Shown in pieces: positions 14,707 to 37,324 of a stretch of 64,000 nucleotides of DNA. Made by a program: the position numbers and the translations under genes. The stretch's first letter is position 1. Each line of letters starts with the position of its first letter. The stretch is from the NCBI GenBank assembly GCA_041651455.1, contig JBAZJG010000001.1, positions 146,535 to 210,534 on the forward strand, read 5' to 3'. A model generated the notes under the pieces. The model saw nothing but the letters and a program-made list of their open reading frames with translations, made no database searches and had not been told where the DNA came from. This DNA is from Candidatus Omnitrophota bacterium. Its GTDB lineage: Bacteria > Omnitrophota > Gorgyraeia > Pluralincolimonadales > Pluralincolimonadaceae.

Positions 14707-16151
14707 AGCGCGCGATAAGGAAAGCGCTGCTCTGCTATCCGCCGGTGGGGCTGTTCCAGAGGGGCGAGGAGAGGTGCCAGGCGGATATCGAGGGCTCGGC
14801 GACACAGGCGCCTCATGCACCGAACGACCTCGGGTATATCGCAGCGTGCCTCGGGAGGCTCGGGACCGGATGCGTCATAAGGGATTATCCGGCCGAGGGG
14901 ACGACCGAAGAGGCGGTACTGGAAGAGGTAAAGGCATACTCGCCGGACCTTGTGCTTATCAGTACGACTACGCCTACGTTCCCCGAGGATGTCCGGTTCC
15001 TCGAAAAAGTGAAGTCGGCGCTGCCGGGCGCGTTTACCGTCGCGAAGGGAAGCTGTTTCTGCTCGCTTCCTCTGGATGAACTGCGGAAGAGCGAATACAA
15101 GCCGCTCGACGCTGCCATTTACGGGGAAGCCGAGTTCATAATAGAAGACCTTGTGAATGCTCTCGCAGCGGGCGAGCCTATCGACGGCATAAGCGGGATA
15201 ATAGTAAATATAGGCGATAGGGGTGCGGCAAGGACCGCGCGCCCCCAGTTCCGCGAAGACCTCGATTCCCTTCCGTTCCCGGCGAGGGGCCTGATGAATA
15301 ACGGGCTCTACAGGAACCCGCTTACCGGCAGGCCGATGGCTACGATCCTTGTGTCCCGCGGGTGCCCGTCCCAGTGCATATTCTGCCTAACCCCGGTCAT
15401 ATCCGGGCATAAGTTCAGGAAGAGGTCCGTCGGCAACGTCCTCGATGAGATAAGGGATTGCGTCAAGAATTACGGCATCAGGGATTTCTTCTTCCGCGCC
15501 GACACCTTTACCATGGATAATGGATACGTGAAACAGCTGTGCGGCAGGATAATCGGGGAAGGCCTCAAGATAACATGGGTGGCCAACAGCAGGGCCGACG
15601 TCGTGGACAAGGAACTGCTCGCGGTGATGAAAGCGGCGGGATGCGCGCTCGTAGCGTTCGGGTTCGAGTCCGGCAACGAGGATATACAGCGCAAGGTCAA
15701 GAAGAACGCTTCCGCGGATGACGCGCGCCGCGCGGTAAGGTTATGCAAGGAAGCCGGCCTGAAGACACTCGGGTTCTTTATGATAGGTTTCCCTTGGGAC
15801 GACGAGAAGACGGTAGAGGACACGGCCGCTCTCGCAAGGGAGCTCGACTGCGATTTCATAGAAGTGCATATAGCGCTGCCGTTCGAGGGCACGGAGCTTA
15901 ACGACATATGCCGGGACCTCGGGCTAATAAAGGAGACATCGGTCGGGTACAACTATTTCTCCAATCCGTACGGCGGCGGGACACTGCACCTTAGCAGTGA
16001 ACGCCTGGTGCAACTCAGGAAGGATATCATAAAGAGGCAGTACCTGCGGCTGCCGTACATATTCCGCATGCTTACGAACTGCGGCTCTTTTTATGAATTC
16101 ATGAACTATATAAAGTACGGTTTCAGGCTCATCGGAAAGGTCGCGCGTTGA
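14703..16151 (+). CDS. B12-binding-domain radical SAM enzyme (class B; probable cobalamin-dependent methyltransferase)
   Basis: N-terminal B12-binding-like Rossmann domain. CPSQCIFC (CxxxCxxC) radical SAM motif. GTG start overlapping the upstream stop (GTGA). Confidence 0.7.
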   Translation: MKRAIRKALLCYPPVGLFQRGEERCQADIEGSATQAPHAPNDLGYIAACLGRLGTGCVIRDYPAEGTTEEAVLEEVKAYSPDLVLISTTTPTFPEDVRFLEKVKSALPGAFTVAKGSCFCSLPLDELRKSEYKPLDAAIYGEAEFIIEDLVNALAAGEPIDGISGIIVNIGDRGAARTARPQFREDLDSLPFPARGLMNNGLYRNPLTGRPMATILVSRGCPSQCIFCLTPVISGHKFRKRSVGNVLDEIRDCVKNYGIRDFFFRADTFTMDNGYVKQLCGRIIGEGLKITWVANSRADVVDKELLAVMKAAGCALVAFGFESGNEDIQRKVKKNASADDARRAVRLCKEAGLKTLGFFMIGFPWDDEKTVEDTAALARELDCDFIEVHIALPFEGTELNDICRDLGLIKETSVGYNYFSNPYGGGTLHLSSERLVQLRKDIIKRQYLRLPYIFRMLTNCGSFYEFMNYIKYGFRLIGKVAR

Positions 16152-20404: not shown

Positions 20405-21343
20405 ATGAATACGGGCCTTTCTATCGTTGTCCCGACGTATAACGAGGAAGATTCCATCGTTAAGCTGCATTCAAGGATAAAGGAAGCCCTCCGAGGCAAG
20501 GTAAAATACGAGATCATATTTGTCGATGACGGTAGTACCGACGGGACATACGGGATCCTGGACAAGCTGAACCGCGAAGACCCGGACGTAAAGGCCGTAA
20601 AGCTCTCGAGGAATTTCGGGCATGAGATAGCGACGTCCGCAGGGCTCAGGTATGCATCGGGAGAGGCCGTAGTCGTGATGGACTCCGACCTGCAGCATCC
20701 TCCCGAGACGATAAATGAACTGCTGGAGAAAATGAAGGAAGGTTATGATATCGTCTTCGCGGTGAGGCGCAACAGGGAAGCCGGGTCCGCGCTTAAAAAA
20801 TTCTGCTCGAAGGCCTTCTACGGCGTATTGGGCAGGCTGTCGGAGGTCAAACTGCCGGATGACGTGACGGATTTCATGATACTTAACAGGAAGGCGGTCG
20901 ACGCGTTCCTTAAGCTCAGGGAAAAGAGCCGATTCTTCAGGGCTATGATCTCATGGATGGGCTTCAGGACGGCATTCGTGCCGTTCGAGGAAGGAAAGAG
21001 GAGCAGCGGCAGCTCGAAATACGGCCTGCGTAAGCTCGCGGGCCTCTCGGTTGACGTAGTGACGGGATATTCGATAAAACCGCTGGCGTTCGTTTCGTGG
21101 GCAGGGGCCATAATTTCGGCGGCAAGCTTCGCGCTGCTGCTTTTCTACTTGGTTAAGACGATATTCTACGGCGCGTCCATGCCGGGTTATGCGTCGATGA
21201 TGATAACTATATTGTTCATAGGCGGCATTCAACTGCTGTCTATCGGGATAATAGGACAGTATATCGGCAGGATATACAAGGAGACGCAGAAGAGGCCGTT
21301 ATACCTCGTCGGCAGCCTTATAGGACTGGAAGAAAAGGAATGA
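20405..21343 (+). CDS. GT2 polyprenyl-phosphate hexose synthase (GtrB/ArnC-like, with C-terminal TM helices)
   Basis: LSIVVPTYNEEDSI...[12 protein letters not shown]...KLSRNFGHEIATSAGL...VMDSDLQHPPE. Two C-terminal hydrophobic helices. Confidence 0.7.
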   Translation: MNTGLSIVVPTYNEEDSIVKLHSRIKEALRGKVKYEIIFVDDGSTDGTYGILDKLNREDPDVKAVKLSRNFGHEIATSAGLRYASGEAVVVMDSDLQHPPETINELLEKMKEGYDIVFAVRRNREAGSALKKFCSKAFYGVLGRLSEVKLPDDVTDFMILNRKAVDAFLKLREKSRFFRAMISWMGFRTAFVPFEEGKRSSGSSKYGLRKLAGLSVDVVTGYSIKPLAFVSWAGAIISAASFALLLFYLVKTIFYGASMPGYASMMITILFIGGIQLLSIGIIGQYIGRIYKETQKRPLYLVGSLIGLEEKE

Positions 21344-23055
21344 CGCGTAAGAAGGCCGCCCTGCTATTGGCCGTCGTGATGATGGCGGCATTCCACATCT
21401 CCGCGAGCATTGCGCAGATGTCCAACAAGTTCGACGACGAACCAGCCGCAGGGCCGTTCGGCGGGATACGCCTGCATTACCTGAATGTCCTTAACTTCGA
21501 TTTCTCGCACGGGGTGTCGGCGCAGGATGGCACGTCGCATATACTGGACAATTTCATCAAGTCGGCGGTCAGCGGAACGCACGGGCTCCTTGATTTTGCG
21601 CACTGGTACGCATACGCGGGCATATACGACATGCTCGGGATACCGGTGAACGAGTTCTGGCTTTTGTTCGCGCAGACCGTGGTGATGTTCTGCGGCCTCA
21701 TGTTGATGGCATACGCGGTATACAGGCTCTACGATGATGCAGTAGCGGCGCTGGTATTCCTGGCGATAACGTCCCAGGCGTATGTGCAGCACTCCATCAG
21801 TTTCTATATAATACCGGTGAATACGTTATATGAAGGCCTCTTGCTTCTCTCGATATATTTTTACGACTGGAAGGAGAAGGGGTTTGCGCGGAAAATCCCG
21901 CTGCTCGTGATGTTATTCATAAACTCGGCCTGCGGCAATGTGATAAAAATGCCGGTATACCTGTATTTCGCATGGGCCGCGGCGTATAAACGGGACAATT
22001 ACGGGCCGCTTGGCTCGGCCAGGGAATACTTCGTAAAGAATCCCGCGAACCTGACGCTTGCGGTCCCGGTCATTGCCGCGGCCGTCGCGCACCTCTATGT
22101 ATACAAGAGGATAGGAGAGAGCAACCTGGGGCTTTTGGGCTGGGTCTCGCAGAAGATAGGCATAGGAGCTCCGCTCGTATCGAAATTCGCAGCGATAGGA
22201 AGTTCGCTGAAGAGCATGTTGCTGTCAGGCATGTGGCAGTGGTGGGCGTTTGCAGCCCTTGCGGCATTTTACGCGATAGCCGTAATGCGGGGGAAGAAAC
22301 AAACACCGCTGCTGTTATTTCCCGTCGTATATTACCTGTATCTCATAAATCTTGAGCCGTATTCGGCGATGCTTCCCTACATGATTATTGCGTCTATAGC
22401 GATAGCGCAGGCCTTCAGGATGGCATCCGATAAAACACGGAATGCGGCCGCGAGGTATGCTTCGACAGCGGCAGTCGCGGTCTTTACGGCATACATACTT
22501 TCGGTTTCGGCATCTGCGAACGTGGCTTCCCTCGTTTCGCCGAGGCAACGGTCACCCAATTACCTGAAGAGCGTCGGTTATTACCTTAGGGAGCATATGA
22601 GCAAGGATGATAAGATCGCAAGCTTGCTCGACCAGAGGGAGAACATCCTGAACGAATATTATTACGGAAAGAACTTCTTCAAGAGCCCGGTATTCGGGAA
22701 ATATATCTATGACATGAGGAACATTTCGGAGCCGCCATCTTCAACGAACCCGGTGGCCGAAGGCGAGGCGGACATGGAATTCCCTTTTTATGTCGTATCT
22801 GCGTCGTGTTATAAAAAGGACGCGGGATATGCCTCATTTGTAGATAGGCTCGCAAAGAAATACTCTCTCAAGAAGGTCGCCGATATCGCCTCGGGCGGCA
22901 CCGTCTACGCGTCGGTGTATTCTTCGAGGCCTCTGCAATACGAGAGGTTAGAGGCCGAGAATGCCAATGGGAAATTTGATAGGAAATACGCAAATTTAAA
23001 GAAACTGTTCTACAACAGGCATGTCGGCGTAGCCTCGACCTGGGGGTTCTATTGA
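21340..23055 (+). CDS. Polytopic membrane protein, GT-C-like glycosyltransferase candidate (GtrC/ArnT-type partner of the upstream GtrB-like gene)
   Basis: KFDDEP first-loop acidic motif then ...AYAGIYDMLGIPVNEFWLLFAQTVVMFCGLMLMAYAVYRLY. More than 10 helices and a C-terminal soluble domain. ATGA overlap. Confidence 0.45.
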   Translation: MTRKKAALLLAVVMMAAFHISASIAQMSNKFDDEPAAGPFGGIRLHYLNVLNFDFSHGVSAQDGTSHILDNFIKSAVSGTHGLLDFAHWYAYAGIYDMLGIPVNEFWLLFAQTVVMFCGLMLMAYAVYRLYDDAVAALVFLAITSQAYVQHSISFYIIPVNTLYEGLLLLSIYFYDWKEKGFARKIPLLVMLFINSACGNVIKMPVYLYFAWAAAYKRDNYGPLGSAREYFVKNPANLTLAVPVIAAAVAHLYVYKRIGESNLGLLGWVSQKIGIGAPLVSKFAAIGSSLKSMLLSGMWQWWAFAALAAFYAIAVMRGKKQTPLLLFPVVYYLYLINLEPYSAMLPYMIIASIAIAQAFRMASDKTRNAAARYASTAAVAVFTAYILSVSASANVASLVSPRQRSPNYLKSVGYYLREHMSKDDKIASLLDQRENILNEYYYGKNFFKSPVFGKYIYDMRNISEPPSSTNPVAEGEADMEFPFYVVSASCYKKDAGYASFVDRLAKKYSLKKVADIASGGTVYASVYSSRPLQYERLEAENANGKFDRKYANLKKLFYNRHVGVASTWGFY

Positions 23056-27213: not shown

Positions 27214-29121
27214 ATGTGCGGGATCTGCGGTATCATAGACATCTCCGGAAGGCCTGTCAACGCAGATACTGTAAAAGCCATGTGCTCGGAGATGAAGCAC
27301 AGGGGCCCTGACGACGAAGGGATATACCTGAACGCGGCTTGCGAACGCAGCTCCGGCAGAGGCCCCTCTGCCGCGCTCGGACACAGGAGGCTGAGCATCA
27401 TTGACCTCTCGTCGTGCGCGAAGCAGCCGATGTCAAACGAGGACGGTTCGGTATGGCTTGTCCTGAACGGCGAGATATATAATTACAACGAACTGAGGCC
27501 CGGGCTTGAGAGCAAGGGCCATAAGTTCAGGTCGCATTCCGATACAGAAACGCTCGTGCACCTGTACGAGGAGTACGGCGGGAAATGCGTCGACAAGCTC
27601 AGGGGGATGTTCGCGTTCGCGATCTGGGATGATAATAAGAAGGAGCTTTTTGCGGCCAGGGACAGGGTCGGGAAGAAGCCGTTCGTATACCAGCATAAGG
27701 ACGGAAGGTTCGTGTTCGCGTCGGAGTTCGCGGCGCTCCTGAAGAGCGGCGAGATATCACGGAAAGTAAGCGATGACGCGATACACTATTACATGAGCCT
27801 CGGTTACGTCCCGGCCCCGGCGTCGGCGCTGGAAGGCGTAAACAAGCTGCCGCCGGCCCATTGCCTTACGCTTTCAAAATCCGGCCTGAAGGTGGAACGT
27901 TACTGGGAACTGGATTATTCCAGGAAGCTGAAGATAAGCGAGGAAGACGCCGCCGCCGAGGTCAAAAGGCTTTCGGAGGAAGCAGTAAAGATAAGGCTGT
28001 TCAGTGACGTACCGCTCGGAGCGTTCCTTAGCGGAGGGGTCGACTCAAGCTGCGTAGTGGCGATGATGAGCAAGCTCTCCCCGGGAAAGGTCAGGACCTT
28101 TACGATAGGCTTCGAGGAGAAGGACTACAGCGAACTCGAATACGCAAGGAAGATATCCGGCATTTTCGGCACCGAACACCGCGAGTTTATCGTGAAGCCG
28201 AACGCGCTCGATATAATAGGCATGCTCGCGGAAAGGTACGGCGAACCGTATGCCGACTCTTCGTGCATACCGACATACTACGTATCGAAGGAGACGCGCG
28301 CATTCGTGACGGTCGCCCTGAACGGAGACGGCGGCGACGAATCCTTCGCCGGATACGAACGTTACCAGGCGATGAGCGCGGCGGAAAAGATCCGCGGCCT
28401 CGGGATGGGCGCGGCGGCCAGGGCTGCCTCGTCTTTATTGCCGGACTCTACGAACCCTAAAGACCTGGCGCGCAGGGCCAGGAGGTTCCTGACTAACGCC
28501 GGCCTGCCCGCGGCCGAAAGGTATTTGAGGTGGGTAGGAATTGCAGGGGAGGTGAAACCGGAGAAACTGTATTCCGGGGACTACCTCGGCCGGATAGATA
28601 AGGCCGGCCCGTTGCGCCTTTTAAAACCGTATATAGACGGCAAGTCGTGCCCGGAGTTCCTCGACAGGCTGCTGAAGGCCGACGTAAATACGTCGCTGCC
28701 GAACGACCTGCTCGTAAAGGTCGATATCGCGGGCATGGCAGCGTCGCTCGAAGGGCGTTCGCCGTTCCTCGACCATAAACTTATGGAATTTGCGGCTTCG
28801 CTTCCCTCGTCCTATAAGATAAAAGGAAACACCAAGAAGTACATACTTAAGAAGGCCTTCTCAGGGGTGATACCCGACGATATATTATCGAGGAGGAAGA
28901 TGGGTTTCGGCGTGCCGGTAAGCGCGTGGTTCAGGGGGGAGCTTAAGGGCATGCTGACGGAGACGCTTCTTTCAAGGGCGTCGCTATCGAGGGGATATTT
29001 CAGGCAGGAGGCGGTAAAAGGGATGGTCGATAACCATACCTCCGGAAGGAAGGATTATTCGTTCCAGTTGTGGGCTATGTTGATGCTCGAGCTGTGGCAT
29101 AAGAGGTTCATCGACGGATGA
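27214..29121 (+). CDS. asnB: Asparagine synthetase B-type glutamine amidotransferase (WbpS-like, in the glycan cluster)
   Basis: MCGICGI N-terminal Ntn-Cys. SGGVDSS PP-loop. Full-length 635 aa. Confidence 0.8.
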   Translation: MCGICGIIDISGRPVNADTVKAMCSEMKHRGPDDEGIYLNAACERSSGRGPSAALGHRRLSIIDLSSCAKQPMSNEDGSVWLVLNGEIYNYNELRPGLESKGHKFRSHSDTETLVHLYEEYGGKCVDKLRGMFAFAIWDDNKKELFAARDRVGKKPFVYQHKDGRFVFASEFAALLKSGEISRKVSDDAIHYYMSLGYVPAPASALEGVNKLPPAHCLTLSKSGLKVERYWELDYSRKLKISEEDAAAEVKRLSEEAVKIRLFSDVPLGAFLSGGVDSSCVVAMMSKLSPGKVRTFTIGFEEKDYSELEYARKISGIFGTEHREFIVKPNALDIIGMLAERYGEPYADSSCIPTYYVSKETRAFVTVALNGDGGDESFAGYERYQAMSAAEKIRGLGMGAAARAASSLLPDSTNPKDLARRARRFLTNAGLPAAERYLRWVGIAGEVKPEKLYSGDYLGRIDKAGPLRLLKPYIDGKSCPEFLDRLLKADVNTSLPNDLLVKVDIAGMAASLEGRSPFLDHKLMEFAASLPSSYKIKGNTKKYILKKAFSGVIPDDILSRRKMGFGVPVSAWFRGELKGMLTETLLSRASLSRGYFRQEAVKGMVDNHTSGRKDYSFQLWAMLMLELWHKRFIDG

Positions 29122-29133
29122 GTGAGGGTAAAA

Positions 29134-30978
29134 ATGCTTAAGAACCATGACATAATATGCATATCTTCGATCGACTGGGATTTTATATGGCAGGGGCACC
29201 AGGAGATCATGTCCGCGTTCGCCGCGAACGGCAACCGCATCCTGTTCATCGAGAACACGGGAGTGCGCGCTCCGAAGATAAGGGACATATCCCGCCTGCG
29301 TAAAAGGTTCAAGGATTACTTCAGGGGCGTCAAGGGAATCAGGGAAGAGGCGAAGAACCTTTATATATACTCCCCTATAGTCCTGCCGTTCCCGTACTCT
29401 CGAATAGCGAGGATGGTCAATAAGTTCATCCTGCTTTCGGTCATCAAGAAATGGATGAGGGCGATGAATTTCGCGAACCCGGTCATATGGACGTTCCTCC
29501 CTACGGGGACCGCGATGGATATCATAGAGAATATAGACAAGAAGCTGCTGATATATTATTGCATAGATAATTTCGCGGTCAGCTCCGCAGCCGCGAAGAA
29601 GATAATCGCGTACGAAAAAAAGCTTATAGGCATCGCGGACCGCGTGTTCGTGACGTCGCAGGCGCTGTATGACCACTGCGCGAGGTTCAACGATAACGTG
29701 ACGCTCTTCCCGTTCGGAGTGAACATAGAAAATTTCGAGAAGGTCAGGAAGGAGCGGACGGAGATACCCGCGGAGCTGAAGGACTTGAAGCCGCCGGTCA
29801 TCGGTTATGTCGGAGGGGTGCACAAGTGGATAGATTTCGAGCTTGTCAAATATGCCGCTTCCGCGCATCCGGAGATGCAGTTCGTCTTCGTGGGTCCGGT
29901 GCAAACGGACGTGTCGCAGCTGTCCGGCTGTCCCAACATCCGCCTTTTAGGCGGACGCAAGCATTCCGAGCTTCCGAACCTCGTGAAGCATTTTACCGCG
30001 GCCGTAATACCTTACCTGTTGACCGAATATACGAAGAACGTATACCCGACAAAGCTTAACGAATACCTTGCAATGGGAAAGCCGGTAATATCATCATATC
30101 TTCCCGAGGTGGATACCTTCAACGGGAGGTATGGCGGTATCGTATATATTGGCAGGGACAAACAGGAGTTCTCATCGTTGTTGTCCAGGGCGATAGCTGA
30201 GGATAACGACGCCCTGAAGGAGAAAAGGATATCGGCGGCGTCGGAGAACAGCTGGAAGTCGCGCATAGAACTAATGAGCGCGGCCATAGAAGAAGCTATT
30301 GAGGAGAAAACAAAGAAGAGCGAAGCCGGCTGGAAGGACAGCCTCGCGGGATTGTTTGCCGCGGCAACGCGCAGGATCGCGCGGCCGGTAGTATATATCG
30401 CCGCGGCACTGCTGTTGGTATTCTGCACACCCGCGGTATGGTTCCTTGCGGAGCCGTTGAAGATAAGCGAGCAGCCTCAAAAGGCCGACGCGATAGTTGT
30501 ATTCGCCGGAGGCACCGGGGAATCGGGAAAGAGAGGGCAAGGATACGAAGAGAGGGTCGAATACGCGGTCGAACTTTATAAGAAAGGCTATGCGGAAAAC
30601 ATTGTATTCTCGTCGGGATATTCATATGCGATAAAGGAAGTCGATATCATGAAAGCGTTGGCGGTGTCGATGGGAGTGCCCGCAAGCGCGATTACGTTGG
30701 AAGACAGGTCCGGATATACGTATGAATTCGTGAAGAACACGAACGATATCGTGCGCAGGAACGGCTGGAAGAAGATACTGCTCGTCAGTTCACCTTATCA
30801 TATGAGGCGCGCCTCGCTGGTTTATGGTAAACTGGGAGGAAGCATAGACGTCATATATACGCCTATCAGGGACAGCAAGTTCTATAAGCACGGGTTCGGT
30901 GCGTCCCCGAGGCAGATAAAGGGCATTTTACACGAGTATGCGGGAATAGTATATTACCTGGTAAAGGGGTATATCTAA
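29134..30978 (+). CDS. Fusion: N-terminal GT-B glycosyltransferase domain, a TM helix, and a C-terminal DUF218 (YdcF/SanA/ElyC-like) domain
   Basis: Rossmann-like GT-B halves (ICISSIDWDF..., VIGYVGGVHKWIDFELV..., LAMGKPVISS). Hydrophobic segment VVYIAAALLLVFCTPAVWF. Then ADAIVVFAGGTG...IVFSSGY...LVSSPYHMRRA, typical DUF218. ATG 29134 with a GAGGG RBS. GTG 29122 is an alternative. Confidence 0.55.
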   Translation: MLKNHDIICISSIDWDFIWQGHQEIMSAFAANGNRILFIENTGVRAPKIRDISRLRKRFKDYFRGVKGIREEAKNLYIYSPIVLPFPYSRIARMVNKFILLSVIKKWMRAMNFANPVIWTFLPTGTAMDIIENIDKKLLIYYCIDNFAVSSAAAKKIIAYEKKLIGIADRVFVTSQALYDHCARFNDNVTLFPFGVNIENFEKVRKERTEIPAELKDLKPPVIGYVGGVHKWIDFELVKYAASAHPEMQFVFVGPVQTDVSQLSGCPNIRLLGGRKHSELPNLVKHFTAAVIPYLLTEYTKNVYPTKLNEYLAMGKPVISSYLPEVDTFNGRYGGIVYIGRDKQEFSSLLSRAIAEDNDALKEKRISAASENSWKSRIELMSAAIEEAIEEKTKKSEAGWKDSLAGLFAAATRRIARPVVYIAAALLLVFCTPAVWFLAEPLKISEQPQKADAIVVFAGGTGESGKRGQGYEERVEYAVELYKKGYAENIVFSSGYSYAIKEVDIMKALAVSMGVPASAITLEDRSGYTYEFVKNTNDIVRRNGWKKILLVSSPYHMRRASLVYGKLGGSIDVIYTPIRDSKFYKHGFGASPRQIKGILHEYAGIVYYLVKGYI

Positions 30979-30993: not shown

Positions 30994-31485
30994 ATGAAGA
31001 TGATAGACGAGAAGGGAAGGATCTTCGGAAAGCTTAACATAATTGATTTCATCTTTGTTGTCCTGCTATTGAGCGTCATCCCGGTATTTTATTACGGCAA
31101 CAGGCTTACGGCAATGAAGAAGCCGGCGGTAAAGAGGTACGAGAAGGTCATCGCCGAGATTAAATTCCTGAAAATAATGCCAGAACTGGCGTCGGTGATC
31201 AGGGAGGGGGATATCGACAAGGATTCTGGGGGAGACACGGCCGGCGTTCTTAAAAAGATTATCTCCAGCAAGAACAGCCAGTTCGTGGCGATGGGCAATA
31301 GTGAGCAGGTTATAATCATGGAAGACCCGATGACGAGAGATGTACAGGCGTCCTTCGAGCTGAACTGTGTAAACGATAACGGCGTGCTCAGTTTTGAGGG
31401 GTATCCCGTAAAGATCGGAAGCGATATCGCATTCACTACCGACCTCTATAGCATGCAGGGTATTGTAGTGAAGATAGAGAGATGA
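30994..31485 (+). CDS. Hypothetical small protein with an N-terminal TM anchor
   Basis: Strong AAAGGAG RBS. IIDFIFVVLLLSVIPVFYY hydrophobic helix. No recognisable catalytic motif. Confidence 0.4.
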   Translation: MKMIDEKGRIFGKLNIIDFIFVVLLLSVIPVFYYGNRLTAMKKPAVKRYEKVIAEIKFLKIMPELASVIREGDIDKDSGGDTAGVLKKIISSKNSQFVAMGNSEQVIIMEDPMTRDVQASFELNCVNDNGVLSFEGYPVKIGSDIAFTTDLYSMQGIVVKIER

Positions 31486-31907
31486 ATAAGGGTAGAGCGG
31501 CCGGAAGCGGGCTGATAAGAACTGCCTACTATATTTGGGGCTTCTACGGCCGTTGCGTCGATCGTTTTGAATCGGTATTCCTGCAAAGCTTTGCGATGAA
31601 GATGTTAAAGGGGTCTGCGGATATGATGTCAGCATGCCTGGAAGGAAGTATTTTATTGAGGATGTCAAGGGCATCGAACAGATACGTTTATTCAGATAGT
31701 GCGTTGTTCGGGAACATAAAGAAATTGTTCTGCCGCTGTGAAACCCTGATGGAATCATATTATGAAGGAAGCGGTTTTCAGAGTATTGCGGCAGAGATTA
31801 ATACCCTTTTCACTGTTCTTGATGGATTCCTGTCCGGGGTCCGATGGGACAGAATGAAGGGTAGCAGTAAGATTATCGGTATCTTGAAAAGATGCGGCAG
31901 AAAATAA
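31482..31907 (+). CDS. Hypothetical protein (141 aa)
   Basis: ATGA-coupled to the upstream ORF. Codon usage is consistent with neighbours. No recognisable domain. Confidence 0.35.
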   Translation: MNKGRAAGSGLIRTAYYIWGFYGRCVDRFESVFLQSFAMKMLKGSADMMSACLEGSILLRMSRASNRYVYSDSALFGNIKKLFCRCETLMESYYEGSGFQSIAAEINTLFTVLDGFLSGVRWDRMKGSSKIIGILKRCGRK

Positions 31908-33085
31908 AGGTATTAAGGATAATCGCCCGCCTTAACGTAGGCGGGCCCGCCATACATACGATCCTTTTGACGTCGGCACTGAACGACGCGGAGTATGCCT
32001 CGGTCCTTGTCTGCGGGAACGTGGACAGGTCCGAGAAGGATATGTCCTACCTTGCGGATACAAAAGGGGTCAAGCCGGTCATAATCCCGGAGCTGTGCAG
32101 GAGCATAAACCCGGTAAAGGACCTGCGGGCGTTTATTGCCATATTCAGGGCCATAAAGGAATTCAAGCCGGATATAGTCCATACCCACACAGCTAAGGCG
32201 GGGGCGTTAGGAAGGGCCGCGGCGGTGCTTGCCGGCGTCCCGGTAAGGATACATACTTTCCACGGCCATATATTCGACGGATATTTCAGCAAGCTGCAGG
32301 CGGCGGTATTTCTCGCGATAGAGAGGGTTCTGGCCTGTTTCACGAAATATATAATTGTCGTCAGCGAGGCGCAAAAGTCCGATATAGCGGAAAAATACCG
32401 TATTGCCGGCGAAAACAAGATAAAAGTCGTCCCTCTCGGCTTGGAACTGGAAAAATACGCGGCAATCGGCGGAAGGGACGGGAATCTGAGGAAGGAGCTT
32501 GGCATCGGAGACGGCGCTGTCCTGGTCTCCATAATAGGCAGGCTTGTCCCCGTAAAGAACCACAGGATGTTCGTCGACGCGGCGAAGATAGCGTTGTCGG
32601 GGACGCCCGCCCCGGACATGAGGTTCGTTATAGTGGGAGACGGGGAAGAAAGGACAGAGTTGGAGGCTTATGCGGCCGGCGCCGGTTTGGAGGGCAGGAT
32701 CGTGTTTCACGGGTGGAAGGAGGATATGGCCGGCGTCTATGCGGATTCGGATATAGTAGCCCTCACGTCTTTGAACGAGGGTACTCCCGTGGCATTGATA
32801 GAGGCCCTGGCCTCAGGGAGGCCGGTTGTTTCGACCGATGTGGGCGGCGTAAGGGATGTAGTGCAGGACGGCAGGACCGGATACCTCGTCGCATCCGGAG
32901 ATGCCCGGACGTTTGCTGGAAAGCTCTGTGAGCTCGCGGCCGACTCCTCGAAACGCGCATCGTTCGGGGCGGCGGGAAAGGCCTCGGTAATGGGGAAGTA
33001 TTCAAGCGAGAGGCTCATATCCGACATAAAACGGCTTTACACAGATTCGCTTATAGATTATAATAAGGGCAAAAAAGGAGTATGA
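31892..33085 (+). CDS. Glycosyltransferase family 4 (GT-B)
   Basis: KVLRIIARLNVGGPAIH N-terminus. C-terminal EGTPVALIEALASGRPVVSTDVGG. Confidence 0.65.
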   Translation: MRQKIKVLRIIARLNVGGPAIHTILLTSALNDAEYASVLVCGNVDRSEKDMSYLADTKGVKPVIIPELCRSINPVKDLRAFIAIFRAIKEFKPDIVHTHTAKAGALGRAAAVLAGVPVRIHTFHGHIFDGYFSKLQAAVFLAIERVLACFTKYIIVVSEAQKSDIAEKYRIAGENKIKVVPLGLELEKYAAIGGRDGNLRKELGIGDGAVLVSIIGRLVPVKNHRMFVDAAKIALSGTPAPDMRFVIVGDGEERTELEAYAAGAGLEGRIVFHGWKEDMAGVYADSDIVALTSLNEGTPVALIEALASGRPVVSTDVGGVRDVVQDGRTGYLVASGDARTFAGKLCELAADSSKRASFGAAGKASVMGKYSSERLISDIKRLYTDSLIDYNKGKKGV

Positions 33086-34058: not shown

Positions 34059-35849
34059 GTGGCTTATGTTTACCTTTTTTTAACCGCTTTTTCAATAGCG
34101 TTCCTTGCGACCCCGGTCGTTAAGGCGGCGGCATGCCGCCTCGGTATCGTCGCGAAGCCGAAAGAAGACAGGTGGCATAAGAAAGTGATACCGCTGATGG
34201 GCGGCATCGCGATATTCGCGGCGTTCATGGCGACCTACCTTGTATTCATGCGCGGCGGGAAGATCAATATGGGGCTCGTAGTGGGCGGCACATCGATATT
34301 CCTGCTTGGTGTTGTAGACGATATCAGGGGCCTGAGCCCCCAGTCGAAGCTTGTCGGGCAGATCATATGCGCCTCGCTGGCAGTGATGTTCGGCGTCTCG
34401 ATAAAGGTAATACCGTTCGCCGCGATATCGGTCCCGCTTACGATCCTCTGGATGGTCGGGATCACGAATTCATTCAACCTTCTTGATAACATGGACGGGC
34501 TGTCGGCGGGCGTTACGGCGATAGCGTCGTTGACGATCTTCGCATGCTCGCTCGCGCTGCACAATTACGAGATAGCGATGGTATCGCTGATAATGGCCGG
34601 CGCCTCGCTCGGTTTCCTGCCGCATAATTTCTATCCCGCGAGGATCTTTATGGGCGACTGCGGCGCGATGTTCCTCGGTTTTACGCTGTCGGCGCTTACG
34701 ATAATGGGCACATGGAAAGAGGTCTCGCACCTTTTCCTCGTCCTGCTCGTCCCTGTGCTCGCGCTGGCCGTCCCGATATTCGATACGCTCTTCGTCGCTA
34801 TAACGCGCACGATAGACGGCAGGTCTGTCGCAAAAGGCGGCAAGGACCATACGTCGCACAGGATGGTCTTCCTCGGATGGCAGGAGAGGAAGGCGGTCAT
34901 GGTGCTTTACTCGATATCGATCCTGTTCGGCGCCGCGGCATATATATCGCTCCACGTGAAGATATACGTAAGCGCCGTCATTATGTCGCTGCTCGTGCTG
35001 GTCATCTCGGTGTTCGCGATATTCCTGAACCATTCCACTATGTCAAGGCGCTCATCGAGGCAGCCCGGCGATAAAGAAGTCTCGTTTTACAAGAACGAAT
35101 CCGAGCTGATAGAAGCCCTGGTAAAATACAAGAGGGTCATATTCGAGGTAATATGCGATTTCATCCTGATATGCCTCGCGTACATGTCGAGCTATATAAT
35201 GAGGTACGAGGGGATAATAGACCATTATAATTTCGGGCTTATAGCTAAATCGCTGCCGATAATTATCGTGATAAAGCTGCTGGCCTTTTCCGTAAGCGGC
35301 GTATACGGGAACATCTGGCGGTATATAGGGCTCAACGAGTTGATCAATATCGTGAAGGGCATAACATTGGGCTCTATAGCGTCGGTCGTGGTCATGGTCA
35401 TCGCATTCAGGTTCGAAGGATTTTCGAGGATGATATTCGTACTCGACGCGATGGTCCTGCTGATACTGATGTCGGCCGTAAGGATAGCTTTCAGGATATT
35501 CAGGGAACAGCTGTTCGTCTCATTCGAAGGCCAGGGCAGGAGGGTCCTCATATTCGGCGCCGGGGACGCGGGTGACGCGTTCCTGCGCGAGATAAGGAAG
35601 AACAGGTCGCTGAACTACCGCCCGATAGGTTTTATCGACGACGACCTCTCGAAACAGGGACGAAGGATACAGGCCGTCCCGGTGCTCGGCGTGAGGTCGG
35701 ATATACCGAGGCTCGTGGAGGAGAAGAATATAGACGAGATAATTCTTGCGATCCCGTCCGCGGACAATAAGACCAAGGATGATATTGAAGCCATATGCAG
35801 GGAGAGCGGCGCGGAGTACCACCAGATAAGCGGGATATACCTTAAGTGA
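34059..35849 (+). CDS. Fusion: WecA/MraY-family polyprenyl-phosphate N-acetylhexosamine-1-phosphate transferase (PNPT) with the WbpM/PglF-type N-terminal 4-TM plus Rossmann-like (CoA-binding-like) domain
   Basis: NSFNLLDNMDGLSAG is the PNPT signature. The C-terminal 260 aa have TM helices then RVLIFGAGDAGDAFLREIRKNRSLNYRPIGFIDDDLSKQGRRIQAVPVLG...IILAIPSA. GTG start. Confidence 0.65.
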   Translation: MAYVYLFLTAFSIAFLATPVVKAAACRLGIVAKPKEDRWHKKVIPLMGGIAIFAAFMATYLVFMRGGKINMGLVVGGTSIFLLGVVDDIRGLSPQSKLVGQIICASLAVMFGVSIKVIPFAAISVPLTILWMVGITNSFNLLDNMDGLSAGVTAIASLTIFACSLALHNYEIAMVSLIMAGASLGFLPHNFYPARIFMGDCGAMFLGFTLSALTIMGTWKEVSHLFLVLLVPVLALAVPIFDTLFVAITRTIDGRSVAKGGKDHTSHRMVFLGWQERKAVMVLYSISILFGAAAYISLHVKIYVSAVIMSLLVLVISVFAIFLNHSTMSRRSSRQPGDKEVSFYKNESELIEALVKYKRVIFEVICDFILICLAYMSSYIMRYEGIIDHYNFGLIAKSLPIIIVIKLLAFSVSGVYGNIWRYIGLNELINIVKGITLGSIASVVVMVIAFRFEGFSRMIFVLDAMVLLILMSAVRIAFRIFREQLFVSFEGQGRRVLIFGAGDAGDAFLREIRKNRSLNYRPIGFIDDDLSKQGRRIQAVPVLGVRSDIPRLVEEKNIDEIILAIPSADNKTKDDIEAICRESGAEYHQISGIYLK

Positions 35850-37324
35850 GCGCCGGGAAAAGCAGGGTATGTTCCGGATGCGACAAATTCATAGAGTACC
35901 TGCTCTACACGCTCTTCTTCTTCATCTCATCGTCAAAGAGCGTCCTCGAAGTGTTCGCTACGATAGCTATCCTCATATGGTTATTCAAGAAATCCTATGA
36001 ACTAAGGGAGCGGATAAGGGCAAAGGCGGAATCGTTCAGCATGACGCGTGCAAGCGCAAGATCTTCCGTCATCTTCGCGCTTATAGGCGTCCTGACGATG
36101 GTAATGGTCTATGTCGCTATCGTGGTCACGATGGGGATAGCTACAAAACATACCGCGCCCGGCGTTAACCTTCTGGCGCCCGCACATTTCATTCCTATCG
36201 TGCTGATCGCGGCGGTCCTGCTGGCGATGTTCTATATAGTCATATCCTCGGTCATGCACTCCTTGCGACTGGATGCCGGCATAAAGGCGTCGTCCGTCTG
36301 CTACCTGCTCGTGGCTATAATCACGTCGGCATTTACCACCGGAAATCTTGCCATAAGCGCAGGGGCCCTTATGTTCAAGACGATGGAATATTTCCTGCTG
36401 TTTATCGTGATAGCGGATGTCATAAATACGAGGGAGAAGCTAGCGCGTTCCGTACTGGCCTTCATATTCCCGGCATCGATAGTGGGACTGGACGGCCTCT
36501 ATCAGTATTATTCCGGCCACGACCTGTTCAGGCATTTCCCGCTCTTCGAGAAGATAAAGGTCACCGCTACTTTCAAGTTCTCGAACAGCGCGGGAACCTT
36601 CTTCGCAACGGTACTGCCGCTTCCGCTTTCGCTATTCATGATGAACACATTCCGAGGCAGTAAGAGGGCGCTGCTTGCGGTTTCGATCGCCGTCATATTC
36701 GCGTGCCTGATGCTGACACAGGCAAGGGCCGCCTGGCTCGGGTTCGCCTCCGCCTTCATATTCCTCTGCGTTATTTCCGGCAAGAAGAGGTTCTATGCGC
36801 TGCTCGCATCGTTACTGGTAGTAGTAGCGCTGCTTGCCGTCGCCGGGCCGCAATCGCTGAAGGACCAGATAGGTTCGCTTGTGAATATAGGAAGGGACCA
36901 GTCGAGCAAGGACAGGCTTCTGATCTGGGAGACGGGCTGGAGGATGTTCATGGACAGGCCTGTATTCGGGCACGGGCTGGGAACGTTCATGAGCGTCTTT
37001 GAAAAATACAGGCCGGCAGGATACAGCGAGATCGTTTATGCGCATAACTGCCTGCTGCAGGTGGCGGCGGAAACGGGTATTGCCGGCGTCCTCGCGTCCT
37101 TATGGATAGCGGCAGCAATGTTCATATCGGGATTGAAGAATTATTTCAGGGAAAAGGACGTTTCTACAAGGGCAGCGTATATAGGGTTCATCGGCGGCCT
37201 GCTCGCAACGATGGTCAACAGCCTTTTTGACACAAACCTGTATTCACTTCCGCTGGCAGTCCTGTTCTGGTCGGTCGCTGGGTTGTCGGTGGCTAAGACT
37301 GAATACGGACAGCCGGAAAATTGA
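35846..37324 (+). CDS. O-antigen ligase / Wzy_C-domain polytopic membrane protein (WaaL-like)
   Basis: AAWLGFASAFIFL...RLLIWETGWRMFMDRPVFGHGLGTF is the characteristic Wzy_C periplasmic loop. GTG start (GTGA overlap). Confidence 0.6.
   Translation: MSAGKSRVCSGCDKFIEYLLYTLFFFISSSKSVLEVFATIAILIWLFKKSYELRERIRAKAESFSMTRASARSSVIFALIGVLTMVMVYVAIVVTMGIATKHTAPGVNLLAPAHFIPIVLIAAVLLAMFYIVISSVMHSLRLDAGIKASSVCYLLVAIITSAFTTGNLAISAGALMFKTMEYFLLFIVIADVINTREKLARSVLAFIFPASIVGLDGLYQYYSGHDLFRHFPLFEKIKVTATFKFSNSAGTFFATVLPLPLSLFMMNTFRGSKRALLAVSIAVIFACLMLTQARAAWLGFASAFIFLCVISGKKRFYALLASLLVVVALLAVAGPQSLKDQIGSLVNIGRDQSSKDRLLIWETGWRMFMDRPVFGHGLGTFMSVFEKYRPAGYSEIVYAHNCLLQVAAETGIAGVLASLWIAAAMFISGLKNYFREKDVSTRAAYIGFIGGLLATMVNSLFDTNLYSLPLAVLFWSVAGLSVAKTEYGQPEN

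What the first reader, a model, noticed from the sequence alone, without database searches (positions are those of the whole stretch)
29134..30978. GT-B glycosyltransferase fused through a TM helix to a DUF218 (YdcF/ElyC/SanA) domain
The first ~400 aa look like a GT4/GT1-type two-Rossmann glycosyltransferase. After one hydrophobic helix comes a DUF218 domain (AIVVFAGGTG...VFSSGY...LVSSPYHMRRA). DUF218 proteins (ElyC, SanA) are implicated in envelope/undecaprenyl-linked intermediate homeostasis, but their biochemical activity is unresolved. A covalent fusion to a cytoplasmic GT would directly tie DUF218 to a specific glycan assembly step.
Basis: partly seen in the sequence, partly recalled or inferred. 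Interest (0 to 1): 0.5.

Follow-up and report, generated by a model that had tools for sequence, protein, structure and literature searches.

The report
Sugar-transferase fused to periplasmic DUF218 domain
This is a real, conserved membrane protein that joins a cytoplasmic sugar-adding enzyme to a SanA/ElyC-type DUF218 domain predicted to face the periplasm; it sits in a surface-polysaccharide gene cluster and gives a testable clue to what the still-unexplained DUF218 domain does.

Summary

It is not a one-off or an assembly artefact. All 240 listed hits from two homology searches share this ~600-650 aa architecture. It occurs in 178 species-representative genomes (Omnitrophota, Acidobacteriota, Nitrospinota, Alphaproteobacteria and others) and persists down to 28% identity.

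Charge bias places the GT in the cytoplasm and DUF218 in the periplasm, as in SanA and ElyC. The three residues essential in SanA (T125/H149/E182) correspond to T529/H556/E601. However, His is replaced by Asn in about 30% of the family.

The gene always lies co-directionally in polysaccharide clusters containing a WecA-type initiating transferase, Wzy_C/WaaL-like protein, GT4s and an AsnB-type amidotransferase. Unfused relatives of the GT lack both the TM helix and any DUF218 neighbour.

Best reading: a pathway-dedicated two-sided protein whose DUF218 half acts on, or senses, the flipped lipid-linked glycan. The biochemical mechanism remains inferred. The family is present in databases under generic names but is undescribed in the literature searched. 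Interest is moderate.

The parts
29134..30978 (+). Whole gene: 614-aa GT-B / TM helix / DUF218 fusion protein, stop codon included
   Evidence: Continuous ORF. Pfam and NCBIfam hits. More than 200 full-length homologues.
29124..29128 (+). Shine-Dalgarno-like GAGGG, 5 nt upstream of the ATG. It lies directly after the AsnB stop codon (29119-29121), suggesting tight operon coupling.
   Evidence: Sequence read.
29134..29748 (+). GT-B N-terminal Rossmann-like (acceptor-side) domain, residues 1-205. It carries invariant motifs: C9-I-S-S-I-D-W, W19-Q-G-H-Q and E40-N-T-G-x-R.
   Evidence: AF2 model with alternating beta/alpha elements. Invariant columns. This is the most conserved region of the protein, with mean pairwise identity 0.62.
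29749..30252 (+). GT-B C-terminal (nucleotide-sugar) domain, residues 206-373. It contains G227-G228-x-H230-K231 and a variant N302-x7-E310 in place of the GT4 EX7E motif. K307 and E310 are invariant.
   Evidence: Pfam Glyco_trans_1_4 and Glycos_transf_1. TuaH-like over residues 139-382. Foldseek hits to MshA, PglA, BshA, WaaG, PimA and GumK. Residue counts.
30253..30381 (+). Terminal GT helix plus linker, residues 374-416. It has invariant W374 and W400, and a basic stretch (R413-R414, R417) just before and at the membrane entry.
   Evidence: AF2 shows a continuous helix over 374-430. Conservation. Unfused GT relatives end just after the W374 helix.
30382..30453 (+). Single transmembrane helix, residues 417-440, predicted N-in/C-out. 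Its outer-leaflet half is nearly invariant (F430, T432, P433, W436, A439).
   Evidence: Hydropathy peak 2.29. Net charge +3.46 before against +0.2 after the helix, with the bias in 98% of 201 members. Per-position conservation.
30454..30975 (+). Periplasmic DUF218 domain, residues 441-614. Invariant residues are P441-L442, G459-G460-x-G-E463, E473-R474, S-S-G-Y 493-496, P554-Y555, R559 and E601-Y602.
30718..30720 (+). T529, the equivalent of SanA T125 (essential in SanA)
   Evidence: Alignment. Thr in 181 of 201 family members. Coordinates. SanA mutagenesis reported in PMC12176290.
30799..30801 (+). H556, the equivalent of SanA H149 (essential in SanA). It is His in the query but Asn in 60 of 201 family members.
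30934..30936 (+). E601, the equivalent of SanA E182 (essential in SanA). It is invariant in the family.
27214..29121 (+). Context: AsnB-type glutamine amidotransferase immediately upstream, a recurrent neighbour of the fusion across phyla
   Evidence: Pfam. NCBIfam TIGR03108-like, 624 bits. Synteny.
30994..31485 (+). Context: DUF4330 protein with one N-terminal hydrophobic helix, directly downstream. Conserved in this position in Omnitrophota-type loci.
   Evidence: Pfam. Hydropathy. Present in 18 of 80 loci.
31892..33085 (+). Context: canonical GT4 glycosyltransferase
   Evidence: Pfam. Present in 44 of 80 loci.
34059..35849 (+). Context: WecA/MraY-type polyprenyl-phosphate sugar-phosphate transferase fused to a WbaP-N-terminal-like CoA_binding_3 region. 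This is the likely initiating enzyme of the pathway and the most consistent partner of the fusion.
   Evidence: Present downstream in 35 of 48 loci that have at least 8 kb of downstream sequence.
35846..37324 (+). Context: Wzy_C / O-antigen-ligase-like polytopic membrane protein
   Evidence: Pfam PF04932. Ten hydrophobic segments. Synteny.

Best explanation
The gene encodes a bitopic inner-membrane protein with two working halves that serve one surface-glycan pathway.

Shown or strongly predicted:
- Residues 1-373 form a GT-B, GT4-like (TuaH-like) nucleotide-sugar glycosyltransferase on the cytoplasmic side.
- Its last helix continues through a basic linker into a single N-in/C-out TM helix (417-440).
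- Residues 441-614 form a SanA/ElyC-type DUF218 domain sitting directly on the periplasmic face of the membrane.
- In this protein the Thr-His-Glu residues essential in SanA are intact (T529/H556/E601).

Inferred:
- The GT adds a sugar to a polyprenyl-diphosphate-linked oligosaccharide. That oligosaccharide is started by the neighbouring WecA-type transferase. The sugar may be a uronic acid, given the TuaH-like profile, the adjacent AsnB-type amidotransferase, and a UDP-sugar dehydrogenase next to one distant homologue.
- After flipping, the DUF218 domain engages the same lipid-linked glycan (or the released polyprenyl diphosphate) in the outer leaflet. It does so together with the conserved outer half of its TM helix.
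- There it acts as a hydrolase- or transferase-like enzyme through the conserved Arg/Glu/Thr/His pocket. This trims or limits flux of that pathway, as SanA does for peptidoglycan and ElyC does for ECA.
- The fusion arose by adding a complete SanA-like module (TM helix plus DUF218) to the C-terminus of an otherwise soluble GT.

Topology: a single hydrophobic helix; net charge +3.46 before it against +0.2 after it, with the bias in 98% of 201 members.

Kinship with the periplasmic paralogues: the triad aligns with SanA and ElyC but not with cytoplasmic YdcF. A profile of the fused domain scores ElyC 31 bits, SanA 30 bits and YdcF 15 bits.

Selection on the fusion: the same architecture appears in all 120 + 120 listed homologues, in 178 species representatives, and in about 49 of the top 150 50%-identity clusters, down to 28% identity. 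DUF218 is as conserved as the GT (0.55 against 0.51-0.62). The outer-leaflet half of the TM helix and the juxtamembrane segment are nearly invariant, while the inner half is not.

Pathway context: co-directional clusters with a WecA-type PNPT, Wzy_C, GT4s, an epimerase and AsnB in Omnitrophota, Acidobacteriota, Magnetococcus, Alphaproteobacteria and Flavobacteriales-labelled contigs.

Origin of the module: unfused GT relatives (36-46% identity) stop right after the W374 helix, have no TM helix, and have no DUF218 neighbour.

Literature: SanA acts in the periplasm, and T125, H149 and E182 are each essential (PMC12176290). Loss of SanA raises peptidoglycan synthesis and lipid II availability. 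Loss of ElyC raises ECA (PMC8609368).
Against: - No biochemical activity is known for any DUF218 protein, so the enzymatic step is pure inference.
- The His equivalent to SanA H149 is Asn in 60 of 201 members, and 20 of those also lack T529. A Thr-His-Glu catalytic mechanism therefore cannot be universal in the family.
- The GT works without DUF218 in related clusters, for example AsnB-GT-GT4 in L086, so DUF218 is accessory.
- No flippase was recognised by Pfam in the window. Several polytopic proteins have no hit.
- Donor and acceptor sugars are unknown, and the uronic-acid idea rests on weak profile similarity (TuaH 107 bits against a 550-bit cut-off) and on neighbours.
- Topology is predicted, not measured.
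Confidence: 0.45

Rival explanations
1. Transmembrane feedback device. The periplasmic DUF218 domain is a ligand sensor rather than an enzyme. It binds the flipped intermediate or the finished periplasmic glycan and, through the continuous helix 374-430, switches the cytoplasmic GT off or on. The pathway would then regulate itself within one polypeptide.
For: - ElyC is proposed to give feedback regulation of ECA-PG synthesis according to periplasmic cyclic ECA levels (PMC8609368).
- The SanA-essential His is Asn in 30% of the family, and Thr is also lost in a third of those, while E601, R559 and R474 stay invariant. That pattern fits a binding pocket better than a fixed catalytic triad.
- AF2 predicts one uninterrupted helix from the GT core through the membrane.
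- Covalent linkage across the membrane is what a cis-regulatory device needs.
Against: - A single TM helix transmits signals poorly unless the protein oligomerises, and no evidence for oligomerisation was obtained.
- The linker and the inner half of the TM helix are the least conserved parts (identity 0.40), which is unexpected for a signal-transmitting element.
- SanA still works when released from its membrane anchor (ssDsbA-SanA; PMC12176290).
Confidence: 0.25
2. Scaffold or tether. The DUF218 domain has no chemistry or sensing role of its own. It docks periplasmic or membrane partners (Wzy_C/WaaL-like protein, DUF4330, polymerase or ligase) so that the cytoplasmic GT is held in one assembly complex.
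For: - SanA was reported to associate with PBP1B (PMC13046291).
- The outer half of the TM helix is conserved, which could be a protein-protein interface.
- DUF4330, a one-TM protein, is a fixed downstream neighbour in Omnitrophota.
Against: - The invariant residues are charged or glycine-rich loop residues typical of a small-molecule or phosphate pocket (G459-G460-x-G-E463, E473-R474, R559, E601). They are conserved across phyla whose neighbouring membrane proteins differ.
- DUF4330 is absent outside Omnitrophota-type loci.
Confidence: 0.12
3. Cytoplasmic YdcF-like domain. The hydrophobic segment is not membrane-spanning, and the DUF218 domain is a cytoplasmic SAM- or nucleotide-binding accessory domain of the GT, as the automatic JGI name ('SAM-binding protein YcdF') implies.
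- Sixteen of 200 full-length members do not reach the hydropathy threshold used.
Against: - Hydropathy of 2.29 over 19 residues and a strong positive-inside bias in 98% of members.
- The triad residues are shared with periplasmic SanA and ElyC but not with YdcF, which has C/M/R at those positions.
- The domain profile scores SanA and ElyC about 30 bits against 15 bits for YdcF.
Confidence: 0.04
4. Artefact. Two adjacent genes (a GT and a SanA-like gene) have been merged by a sequencing or assembly frameshift.
For: None found.
Against: - The frame is uninterrupted.
- The same single-ORF architecture occurs in more than 240 independently assembled homologues from many studies and phyla, down to 28% identity.
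- No split GT + DUF218 gene pair was found in five contexts of unfused relatives.
Confidence: 0.01

Closest known systems
SanA (E. coli b2144): bitopic inner-membrane DUF218 protein
   Same: Same module layout: one N-in TM helix followed directly by a periplasmic DUF218 domain. The essential residues T125/H149/E182 align with T529/H556/E601 (PMC12176290). A profile of the fused domain detects SanA at 30 bits.
   Different: SanA is a 239-aa stand-alone protein linked to peptidoglycan and lipid II, and it is said to be mostly restricted to Enterobacterales. Here the module is the C-terminal third of a 614-aa protein, fused to a GT, in a WecA/Wzy_C polysaccharide cluster in Omnitrophota and other phyla. 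Similarity is distant, with no NCBIfam SanA or ElyC equivalog-level match. SanA also lacks the G459-G460-x-G-E463 loop.
ElyC (E. coli b0920): envelope biogenesis factor, DUF218
   Same: Periplasmic DUF218 with the same conserved Thr/His/Glu and Arg positions. ElyC is functionally tied to a WecA-initiated, Und-P-dependent glycan (ECA). That is the same type of pathway as the cluster here.
   Different: ElyC has two TM helices and no GT. The NCBIfam ElyC equivalog scores 21.4 bits against a cut-off of 205, so this protein is not an ElyC orthologue.
YdcF (E. coli b1414; PDB 3ca8): the only DUF218 protein with a solved structure
   Different: YdcF is cytoplasmic, has no TM helix, and lacks the Thr/His/Glu residues (C/M/R at those columns). 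Sequence identity is 17%.
GT4-type GT-B glycosyltransferases acting on lipid-linked or small acceptors (TuaH, PglA, WaaG, PimA, MshA, BshA; also GumK)
   Same: Two-Rossmann GT-B fold with a C-terminal helix crossing back over the N-domain. Pfam Glycos_transf_1 and Glyco_trans_1_4 hits are above threshold. The best NCBIfam hit is TuaH. The ribose-binding Glu (E310) and the basic residues (K231, K307) are conserved.
   Different: Only 12-16% identity to solved GT4s. The first Glu of EX7E is an almost invariant Asn (N302). The N-terminal domain has its own invariant motifs. The protein is far below the TuaH equivalog cut-off. None of these enzymes carries a TM helix plus a periplasmic domain.
Unfused ~390-435 aa relatives of the GT half (e.g. 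P0149, P0151, P0157)
   Same: 36-46% identical over residues 1-395. One sits in the same AsnB-GT-GT4 arrangement (L086).
   Different: They end right after the W374 helix, have no TM helix and no DUF218 domain, and have no DUF218 gene nearby.

Membership tests
DUF218 (Pfam PF02698; YdcF/ElyC/SanA family) | Match to the family profile above the curated gathering score | tested here: met
   89.2 bits against a cut-off of 27.6, E=2.8e-25, residues 452-604 covering profile positions 1-133 of 133.
DUF218 (Pfam PF02698; YdcF/ElyC/SanA family) | YdcF-like Rossmann-type alpha/beta fold | tested here: met
SanA/ElyC-type (membrane-anchored, periplasmic) DUF218 proteins | TM helix immediately N-terminal to the domain, with the domain on the periplasmic side | tested here: met
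   Prediction only. There is a single helix at 417-440. Net charge over 15 residues is +3.46 before it against +0.2 after it, with the bias in 98% of 201 members. This has not been measured experimentally.
SanA/ElyC-type (membrane-anchored, periplasmic) DUF218 proteins | Thr-His-Glu residues shown essential in SanA (T125, H149, E182) | tested here: met
   The query has T529, H556 and E601 at the aligned columns. Family-wide, Glu is invariant, Thr is kept in 181 of 201 members, and His is kept in only 141 of 201 with Asn in the other 60.
ElyC orthologues (NCBIfam NF007794 equivalog) | Score above the equivalog cut-off (205 bits) | tested here: not met
   21.4 bits, matching residues 473-566 only. 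It is a DUF218 family member, not an ElyC orthologue.
SanA/ElyC functional class | Limits flux of an undecaprenyl-phosphate-dependent glycan pathway | not testable with these tools
   This requires genetics or biochemistry. Only the genomic association with WecA-type, Wzy_C and GT genes is shown.
GT-B glycosyltransferases, GT4-like (Pfam Glycos_transf_1 clan) | Two-Rossmann GT-B fold and a profile match above threshold | tested here: met
   AF2 pLDDT 86.4. 318 PDB hits with E<=1e-3, headed by GT4 enzymes. Glyco_trans_1_4 scores 38.7 against 27, and Glycos_transf_1 scores 30.4 against 26.4.
GT-B glycosyltransferases, GT4-like (Pfam Glycos_transf_1 clan) | Canonical E-x7-E motif of retaining GT4 enzymes | tested here: not met
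   The motif reads N302-x7-E310. Position 302 is Asn in 55 of 59 members, and E310 is invariant (sequence). The protein is therefore filed as GT4-like, not as a proven GT4 member. This is a sequence reading, not a structural superposition.
TuaH (teichuronic acid biosynthesis, NCBIfam NF047676 equivalog) | Score above the equivalog cut-off (550 bits) | tested here: not met
   106.8 bits, E=1.1e-30, residues 139-382. This is the best-scoring named family, but only a distant relative.
PEP-CTERM/XrtA exopolysaccharide system glycosyltransferases (TIGR03087 stp1) and amidotransferase (TIGR03108) | Scores above the curated cut-offs | tested here: not met
   The target scores 26.7 bits against 316.65 for stp1. 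The neighbouring AsnB scores 623.9 against 816.9, and the neighbouring GT4 scores 194.7 against 409 for stp2. No exosortase was seen among the window genes scanned.

The most novel reading that the evidence does not exclude
The GT-TM-DUF218 protein is a one-polypeptide, cross-membrane control unit for glycan assembly. The periplasmic DUF218 domain reads, or destroys, the flipped polyprenyl-PP-linked product of its own cytoplasmic GT and thereby sets flux and lipid-carrier use. If so, DUF218 in general (SanA, ElyC) would be a lipid-linked-glycan-recognising module. The natural His-to-Asn subclade would mark a switch from catalytic to purely sensing members.
Probability: 0.2. Interest if true: 0.7.

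Novelty: new variant of a known kind. Interest (0 to 1): 0.45.

Why it matters
DUF218 proteins (SanA, ElyC) are under active study as regulators of peptidoglycan and ECA synthesis, but no substrate, ligand or reaction is known. They have also been described as mostly confined to Enterobacterales.

This family helps in four ways:
- It shows a SanA-like module covalently coupled, across the membrane, to a glycosyltransferase of a WecA-initiated, Wzy_C-containing pathway, in at least eight phylum-level groups.
- It narrows the likely ligand to a flipped polyprenyl-PP-linked glycan or its carrier.
- It supplies a set of invariant pocket residues (E463, E473-R474, R559, E601) and a natural His/Asn polymorphism with which to test the proposed catalytic triad.
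- It provides compact constructs for biochemistry.

The finding does not itself reveal the reaction.

Tried and rejected
- Single-sequence PDB searches of each half found nothing useful. The DUF218 half gave only an ETF beta subunit at E=0.47, and the GT half gave no hits. Structure-based searches were needed.
- The AFDB50 fold search, intended to give named organisms with the same two-domain fold, was unavailable on the machine.
- I looked for a Rosetta-stone split gene pair (an unfused GT next to a stand-alone TM-DUF218). Five contexts of the closest unfused relatives showed none. Some apparent 'GT-only' or 'DUF218-only' hits are simply contig-end fragments (P0136 is marked 'partial'; P0266 clusters with a 615-aa member).
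- Filing the cluster under the PEP-CTERM/XrtA EPS system was rejected, because all scores fall below the cut-offs and no exosortase was seen.
- Filing the protein as a TuaH or ElyC orthologue was rejected for the same reason.
- A paper-search hit in the polymorphic-toxin paper turned out to be DUF2185, not DUF218.
- I searched the window for a second DUF218 ORF and found none.
- I looked for columns that co-vary with the H556/N556 split and found none at the 80% level.
- Literature searches for any description of a GT-DUF218 fusion found none. Only a note that ElyC-like DUF218 genes occur in exopolysaccharide neighbourhoods turned up.
Full report

Yes. A single open frame runs from 29122 (GTG) or 29134 (ATG) to 30978 on the + strand, with no interruption near 30400. 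The ATG at 29134 is the probable start. A GAGGG motif lies 5 nt upstream, directly after the stop codon of the preceding gene, and homologues begin at the same methionine.

Pfam places a complete DUF218 domain at residues 452-604 (E=2.8e-25, 89.2 bits against a cut-off of 27.6, profile 1-133 of 133). It places the C-terminal Rossmann domain of a group-1 glycosyltransferase at residues 209-360. NCBIfam's best hit is TuaH (teichuronic acid biosynthesis; 1.1e-30 but only 107 of the 550 bits required), with a weak ElyC hit (21 of 205 bits). One strongly hydrophobic segment, residues 417-440, separates the two halves.

**2. Structure**

An AlphaFold2 model built on 59 family members is confident (mean pLDDT 86.4). 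It shows three elements:
- a two-Rossmann GT-B enzyme;
- a continuous helix from residue 374 to 430 that leaves the GT core and becomes the membrane span;
- a compact alpha/beta domain.

Foldseek against the PDB returns GT4-type enzymes that act on lipid-linked or small acceptors (MshA, PglA, BshA, WaaG, PimA), plus GumK, all at 12-16% identity.

In the GT, the ribose-binding Glu of the EX7E motif is invariant (E310). The first Glu of that motif is an almost invariant Asn (N302). I therefore call the enzyme GT4-like rather than a proven GT4 member.

**3. Topology and kinship of the DUF218 half**

Across 201 family members, the 15 residues before the helix carry a mean net charge of +3.46 and the 15 after it +0.2. 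The bias points the same way in 98% of members, and most members have exactly one hydrophobic segment. By the positive-inside rule, this puts the GT in the cytoplasm and DUF218 in the periplasm. That is the layout reported for SanA, ElyC and YgjQ, but not for cytoplasmic YdcF (PMC3879167; PMC12176290).

I aligned the domain with the E. coli paralogues, taken from NC_000913.3. The three SanA residues whose alanine substitutions abolish function (T125, H149, E182; PMC12176290) fall on T529, H556 and E601. ElyC also has T/H/E at these positions, while YdcF has C/M/R. A profile of the fused domain scores ElyC at 31 bits, SanA at 30 bits and YdcF at 15 bits. The C-terminal 200 residues are therefore a complete SanA-like module: a TM helix plus a periplasmic DUF218 domain.

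**4. Is it a one-off?**

No. Four surveys agree:
- A search of 5.8 billion proteins gave 3155 hits. The best 120 are all 594-647 aa, cover 96-100% of the query and carry both domains. Those with names are Candidatus Omnitrophota proteins labelled 'ElyC/SanA/YdcF family protein' or 'YcdF (DUF218)/glycosyltransferase'.
- Among GTDB species representatives, 178 genomes encode a relative. The best 80 are essentially full length (48-93% identity). They come from MAGs labelled Omnitrophota, Acidobacteriota/Vicinamibacterales, Nitrospinota, Methylomirabilota, Nitrospira, Cyanobacteriota, Woeseiaceae and Acidimicrobiia.
- In an exhaustive search of 50%-identity cluster representatives, about 49 of the best 150 are full-length fusions, down to 28% identity. 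A 995-aa version carries an extra N-terminal GT4.
- A profile of the divergent branch again returned 120 proteins of the same architecture, from MAGs labelled Alphaproteobacteria, Flavobacteriales and Magnetococcus and from Tara Oceans data.

The window itself is probably from an Omnitrophota genome, with 93% identity and full synteny to L001 and L004.

**5. Conservation pattern**

DUF218 is as conserved as the GT. Mean pairwise identity is 0.55 for DUF218, 0.62 for the GT N-domain and 0.51 for the GT C-domain. The linker and the TM helix are at 0.40.

Within the TM helix, the cytoplasmic half is variable. The outer-leaflet half and the juxtamembrane segment are almost invariant: F430, T432, P433, W436, A439, P441 and L442. 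This suggests that the outer part of the helix and the domain form one functional surface at the periplasmic membrane face.

Invariant DUF218 residues are glycine-rich or charged: G459-G460-x-G-E463, E473-R474, S-S-G-Y 493-496, P554-Y555, R559 and E601-Y602. Such a set fits a pocket for a phosphate-bearing ligand. That last point is inference.

One unexpected result concerns the His equivalent to SanA H149. It is His in 141 members and Asn in 60 of the 201. All Asn forms come from Omnitrophota-type loci. All 20 losses of T529 lie inside that Asn group, while E601 never changes. The query itself has the full T/H/E set.

**6. Genomic context**

The gene sits in a co-directional block of about 43 kb (roughly 1250-44400) made up of sugar-nucleotide and polysaccharide genes.
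- Immediately upstream is an AsnB-type amidotransferase.
- Downstream, in order, are DUF4330, a small unknown ORF, a canonical GT4, an epimerase/dehydratase, a WecA/MraY-type initiating transferase, a Wzy_C/O-antigen-ligase-like protein, and two heptosyltransferases.

In related loci every neighbour is on the same strand. The order FUSION-DUF4330-GT4-epimerase-WecA-like-Wzy_C-Hep recurs in Omnitrophota. Acidobacteriota and other phyla keep the FUSION, AsnB and WecA-like genes together. Of 48 loci with at least 8 kb of downstream sequence, 35 have the WecA-like gene, 31 the GT4, 29 the epimerase and 20 the Wzy_C.

Three very distant members (35-40% identity to the query family) again lie beside AsnB. 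One of them also has a UDP-sugar dehydrogenase overlapping its start codon, followed by Wzy_C and a PF00953 transferase.

**7. How the fusion arose**

The nearest unfused relatives of the GT (36-46% identity, about 390-435 aa) end just after the helix that begins at W374. They have no hydrophobic segment and no DUF218 gene nearby in five contexts examined. One of these contexts has the same AsnB-GT-GT4 arrangement.

This gives two conclusions:
- The GT can work alone, as a soluble or peripheral enzyme.
- The linker-TM-DUF218 module was added as a unit. Only the covalent form was found; no split gene pair was seen.

**8. Mechanism**

Shown or strongly predicted: the architecture, the topology, the kinship with SanA/ElyC-type DUF218, and the pathway association.

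Inferred:
- The GT extends a polyprenyl-PP-linked oligosaccharide started by the WecA-type enzyme.
- The DUF218 domain then meets the same molecule, or its spent carrier, after flipping.
- There it acts enzymatically through the conserved pocket and limits or edits flux. This parallels the phenotypes of E. coli mutants: loss of SanA raises peptidoglycan synthesis and lipid II availability, and loss of ElyC raises ECA.

The main rival is a sensor model taken from the ElyC literature, in which ElyC gives feedback from periplasmic cyclic ECA (PMC8609368). The natural His-to-Asn and Thr-to-Ala replacements make this plausible for at least part of the family. The poorly conserved linker and inner TM half argue against signal transmission through the helix.

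A pure scaffold role, a cytoplasmic YdcF-like role, and an assembly artefact are progressively less likely. The reasons are given under the rival explanations.

**9. Novelty and verdict**

Both domains are known families, and the fused proteins are already in public databases under generic automatic names. No paper in the searchable library describes or uses the fusion. The closest statement is that ElyC-like DUF218 genes occur in exopolysaccharide neighbourhoods (eLife 2025).

I rate it a new variant of a known kind. It is a solid, moderately interesting comparative-genomics lead on an open question, not a new type of system. All members found come from uncultured organisms, so heterologous work would be needed.

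Noticed in passing
window 34059-35849 (+): This 596-aa protein combines a WecA/MraY-type phosphosugar transferase (PF00953; TIGR02380 over residues 5-326) with a C-terminal region. That region matches the non-catalytic N-terminal part of WbaP/WcaJ-type transferases (TIGR03025/03023 profile positions 2-220; CoA_binding_3 over residues 420-576). There is no Bac_transf catalytic domain. It is the most consistent neighbour of the GT-DUF218 fusion (35 of 48 loci).
   Followed up: partly
window 30799-30801 (H556) and family alignment: The residue matching SanA's essential H149 is Asn in 60 of 201 fusion-family members, all from Omnitrophota-type loci. Twenty of these also lack the Thr equivalent to SanA T125. 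Many Asn-type members also have GGVGETGSPGKSTIERARYA in place of GGVGESGKAGQGYEERV. One MAG (PEUD01; L014 and L023) carries two Asn-type copies.
   Followed up: partly
window 30994-31485 (+): A DUF4330 protein (163 aa, one N-terminal hydrophobic helix) always lies directly downstream of the fusion in Omnitrophota-type loci (18 of 80) and is absent in other phyla. Its function is unknown, and it may be a periplasmic partner.
   Followed up: partly
window 27214-29121 (+); L090, L091, L092: An AsnB-type glutamine amidotransferase recurs next to the fusion in very distant lineages. Its best NCBIfam match is the XrtA/PEP-CTERM amidotransferase TIGR03108, at 624 bits, below the 817-bit cut-off. In L091 a UDP-sugar dehydrogenase overlaps the fusion's start. 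Together these hint at an amidated uronic-acid sugar in the glycan.
   Followed up: partly
window 14703-16151 (+): A B12-binding radical SAM protein sits inside the polysaccharide cluster. Homologues recur, often in several copies, in 21 of 80 related loci.
   Followed up: no
window 47-1237, 6405-8234, 10398-11933, 11930-13273, 21340-23055 (+): Five polytopic membrane proteins (5-11 hydrophobic segments) in the cluster have no Pfam or NCBIfam hit, apart from a weak PMT_2 match for 11930-13273. They are candidates for the flippase, polymerase or GT-C-type enzymes that were otherwise not recognised.
   Followed up: partly
window 13270-14706 (+): A nucleotidyltransferase (NTP_transferase, residues 3-217) is fused to a GT2 glycosyltransferase (residues 249-374) in one ORF.
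   Followed up: no
window 50608-51642 and 51643-52641 (+): Two tandem paralogous galactose-1-phosphate uridylyltransferase-like (DUF4921/HIT-type) genes lie outside the polysaccharide cluster, next to GAPDH and PGK.
   Followed up: no
P0123 / P0125 (995 aa): A longer variant of the family carries an additional canonical GT4 domain at the N-terminus, giving GT4-GT-TM-DUF218. At 43-47% identity it is closer to the query than many two-domain members are.
   Followed up: partly
L004, L010, L012 and other loci: Several MAG records with full synteny to Omnitrophota loci are labelled 'uncultured Planctomycetia', 'Bifidobacteriaceae' or 'Eubacteriales' (binchicken co-assemblies). These taxon labels look unreliable, so the phylum counts for the family should be treated with care.
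   Followed up: no
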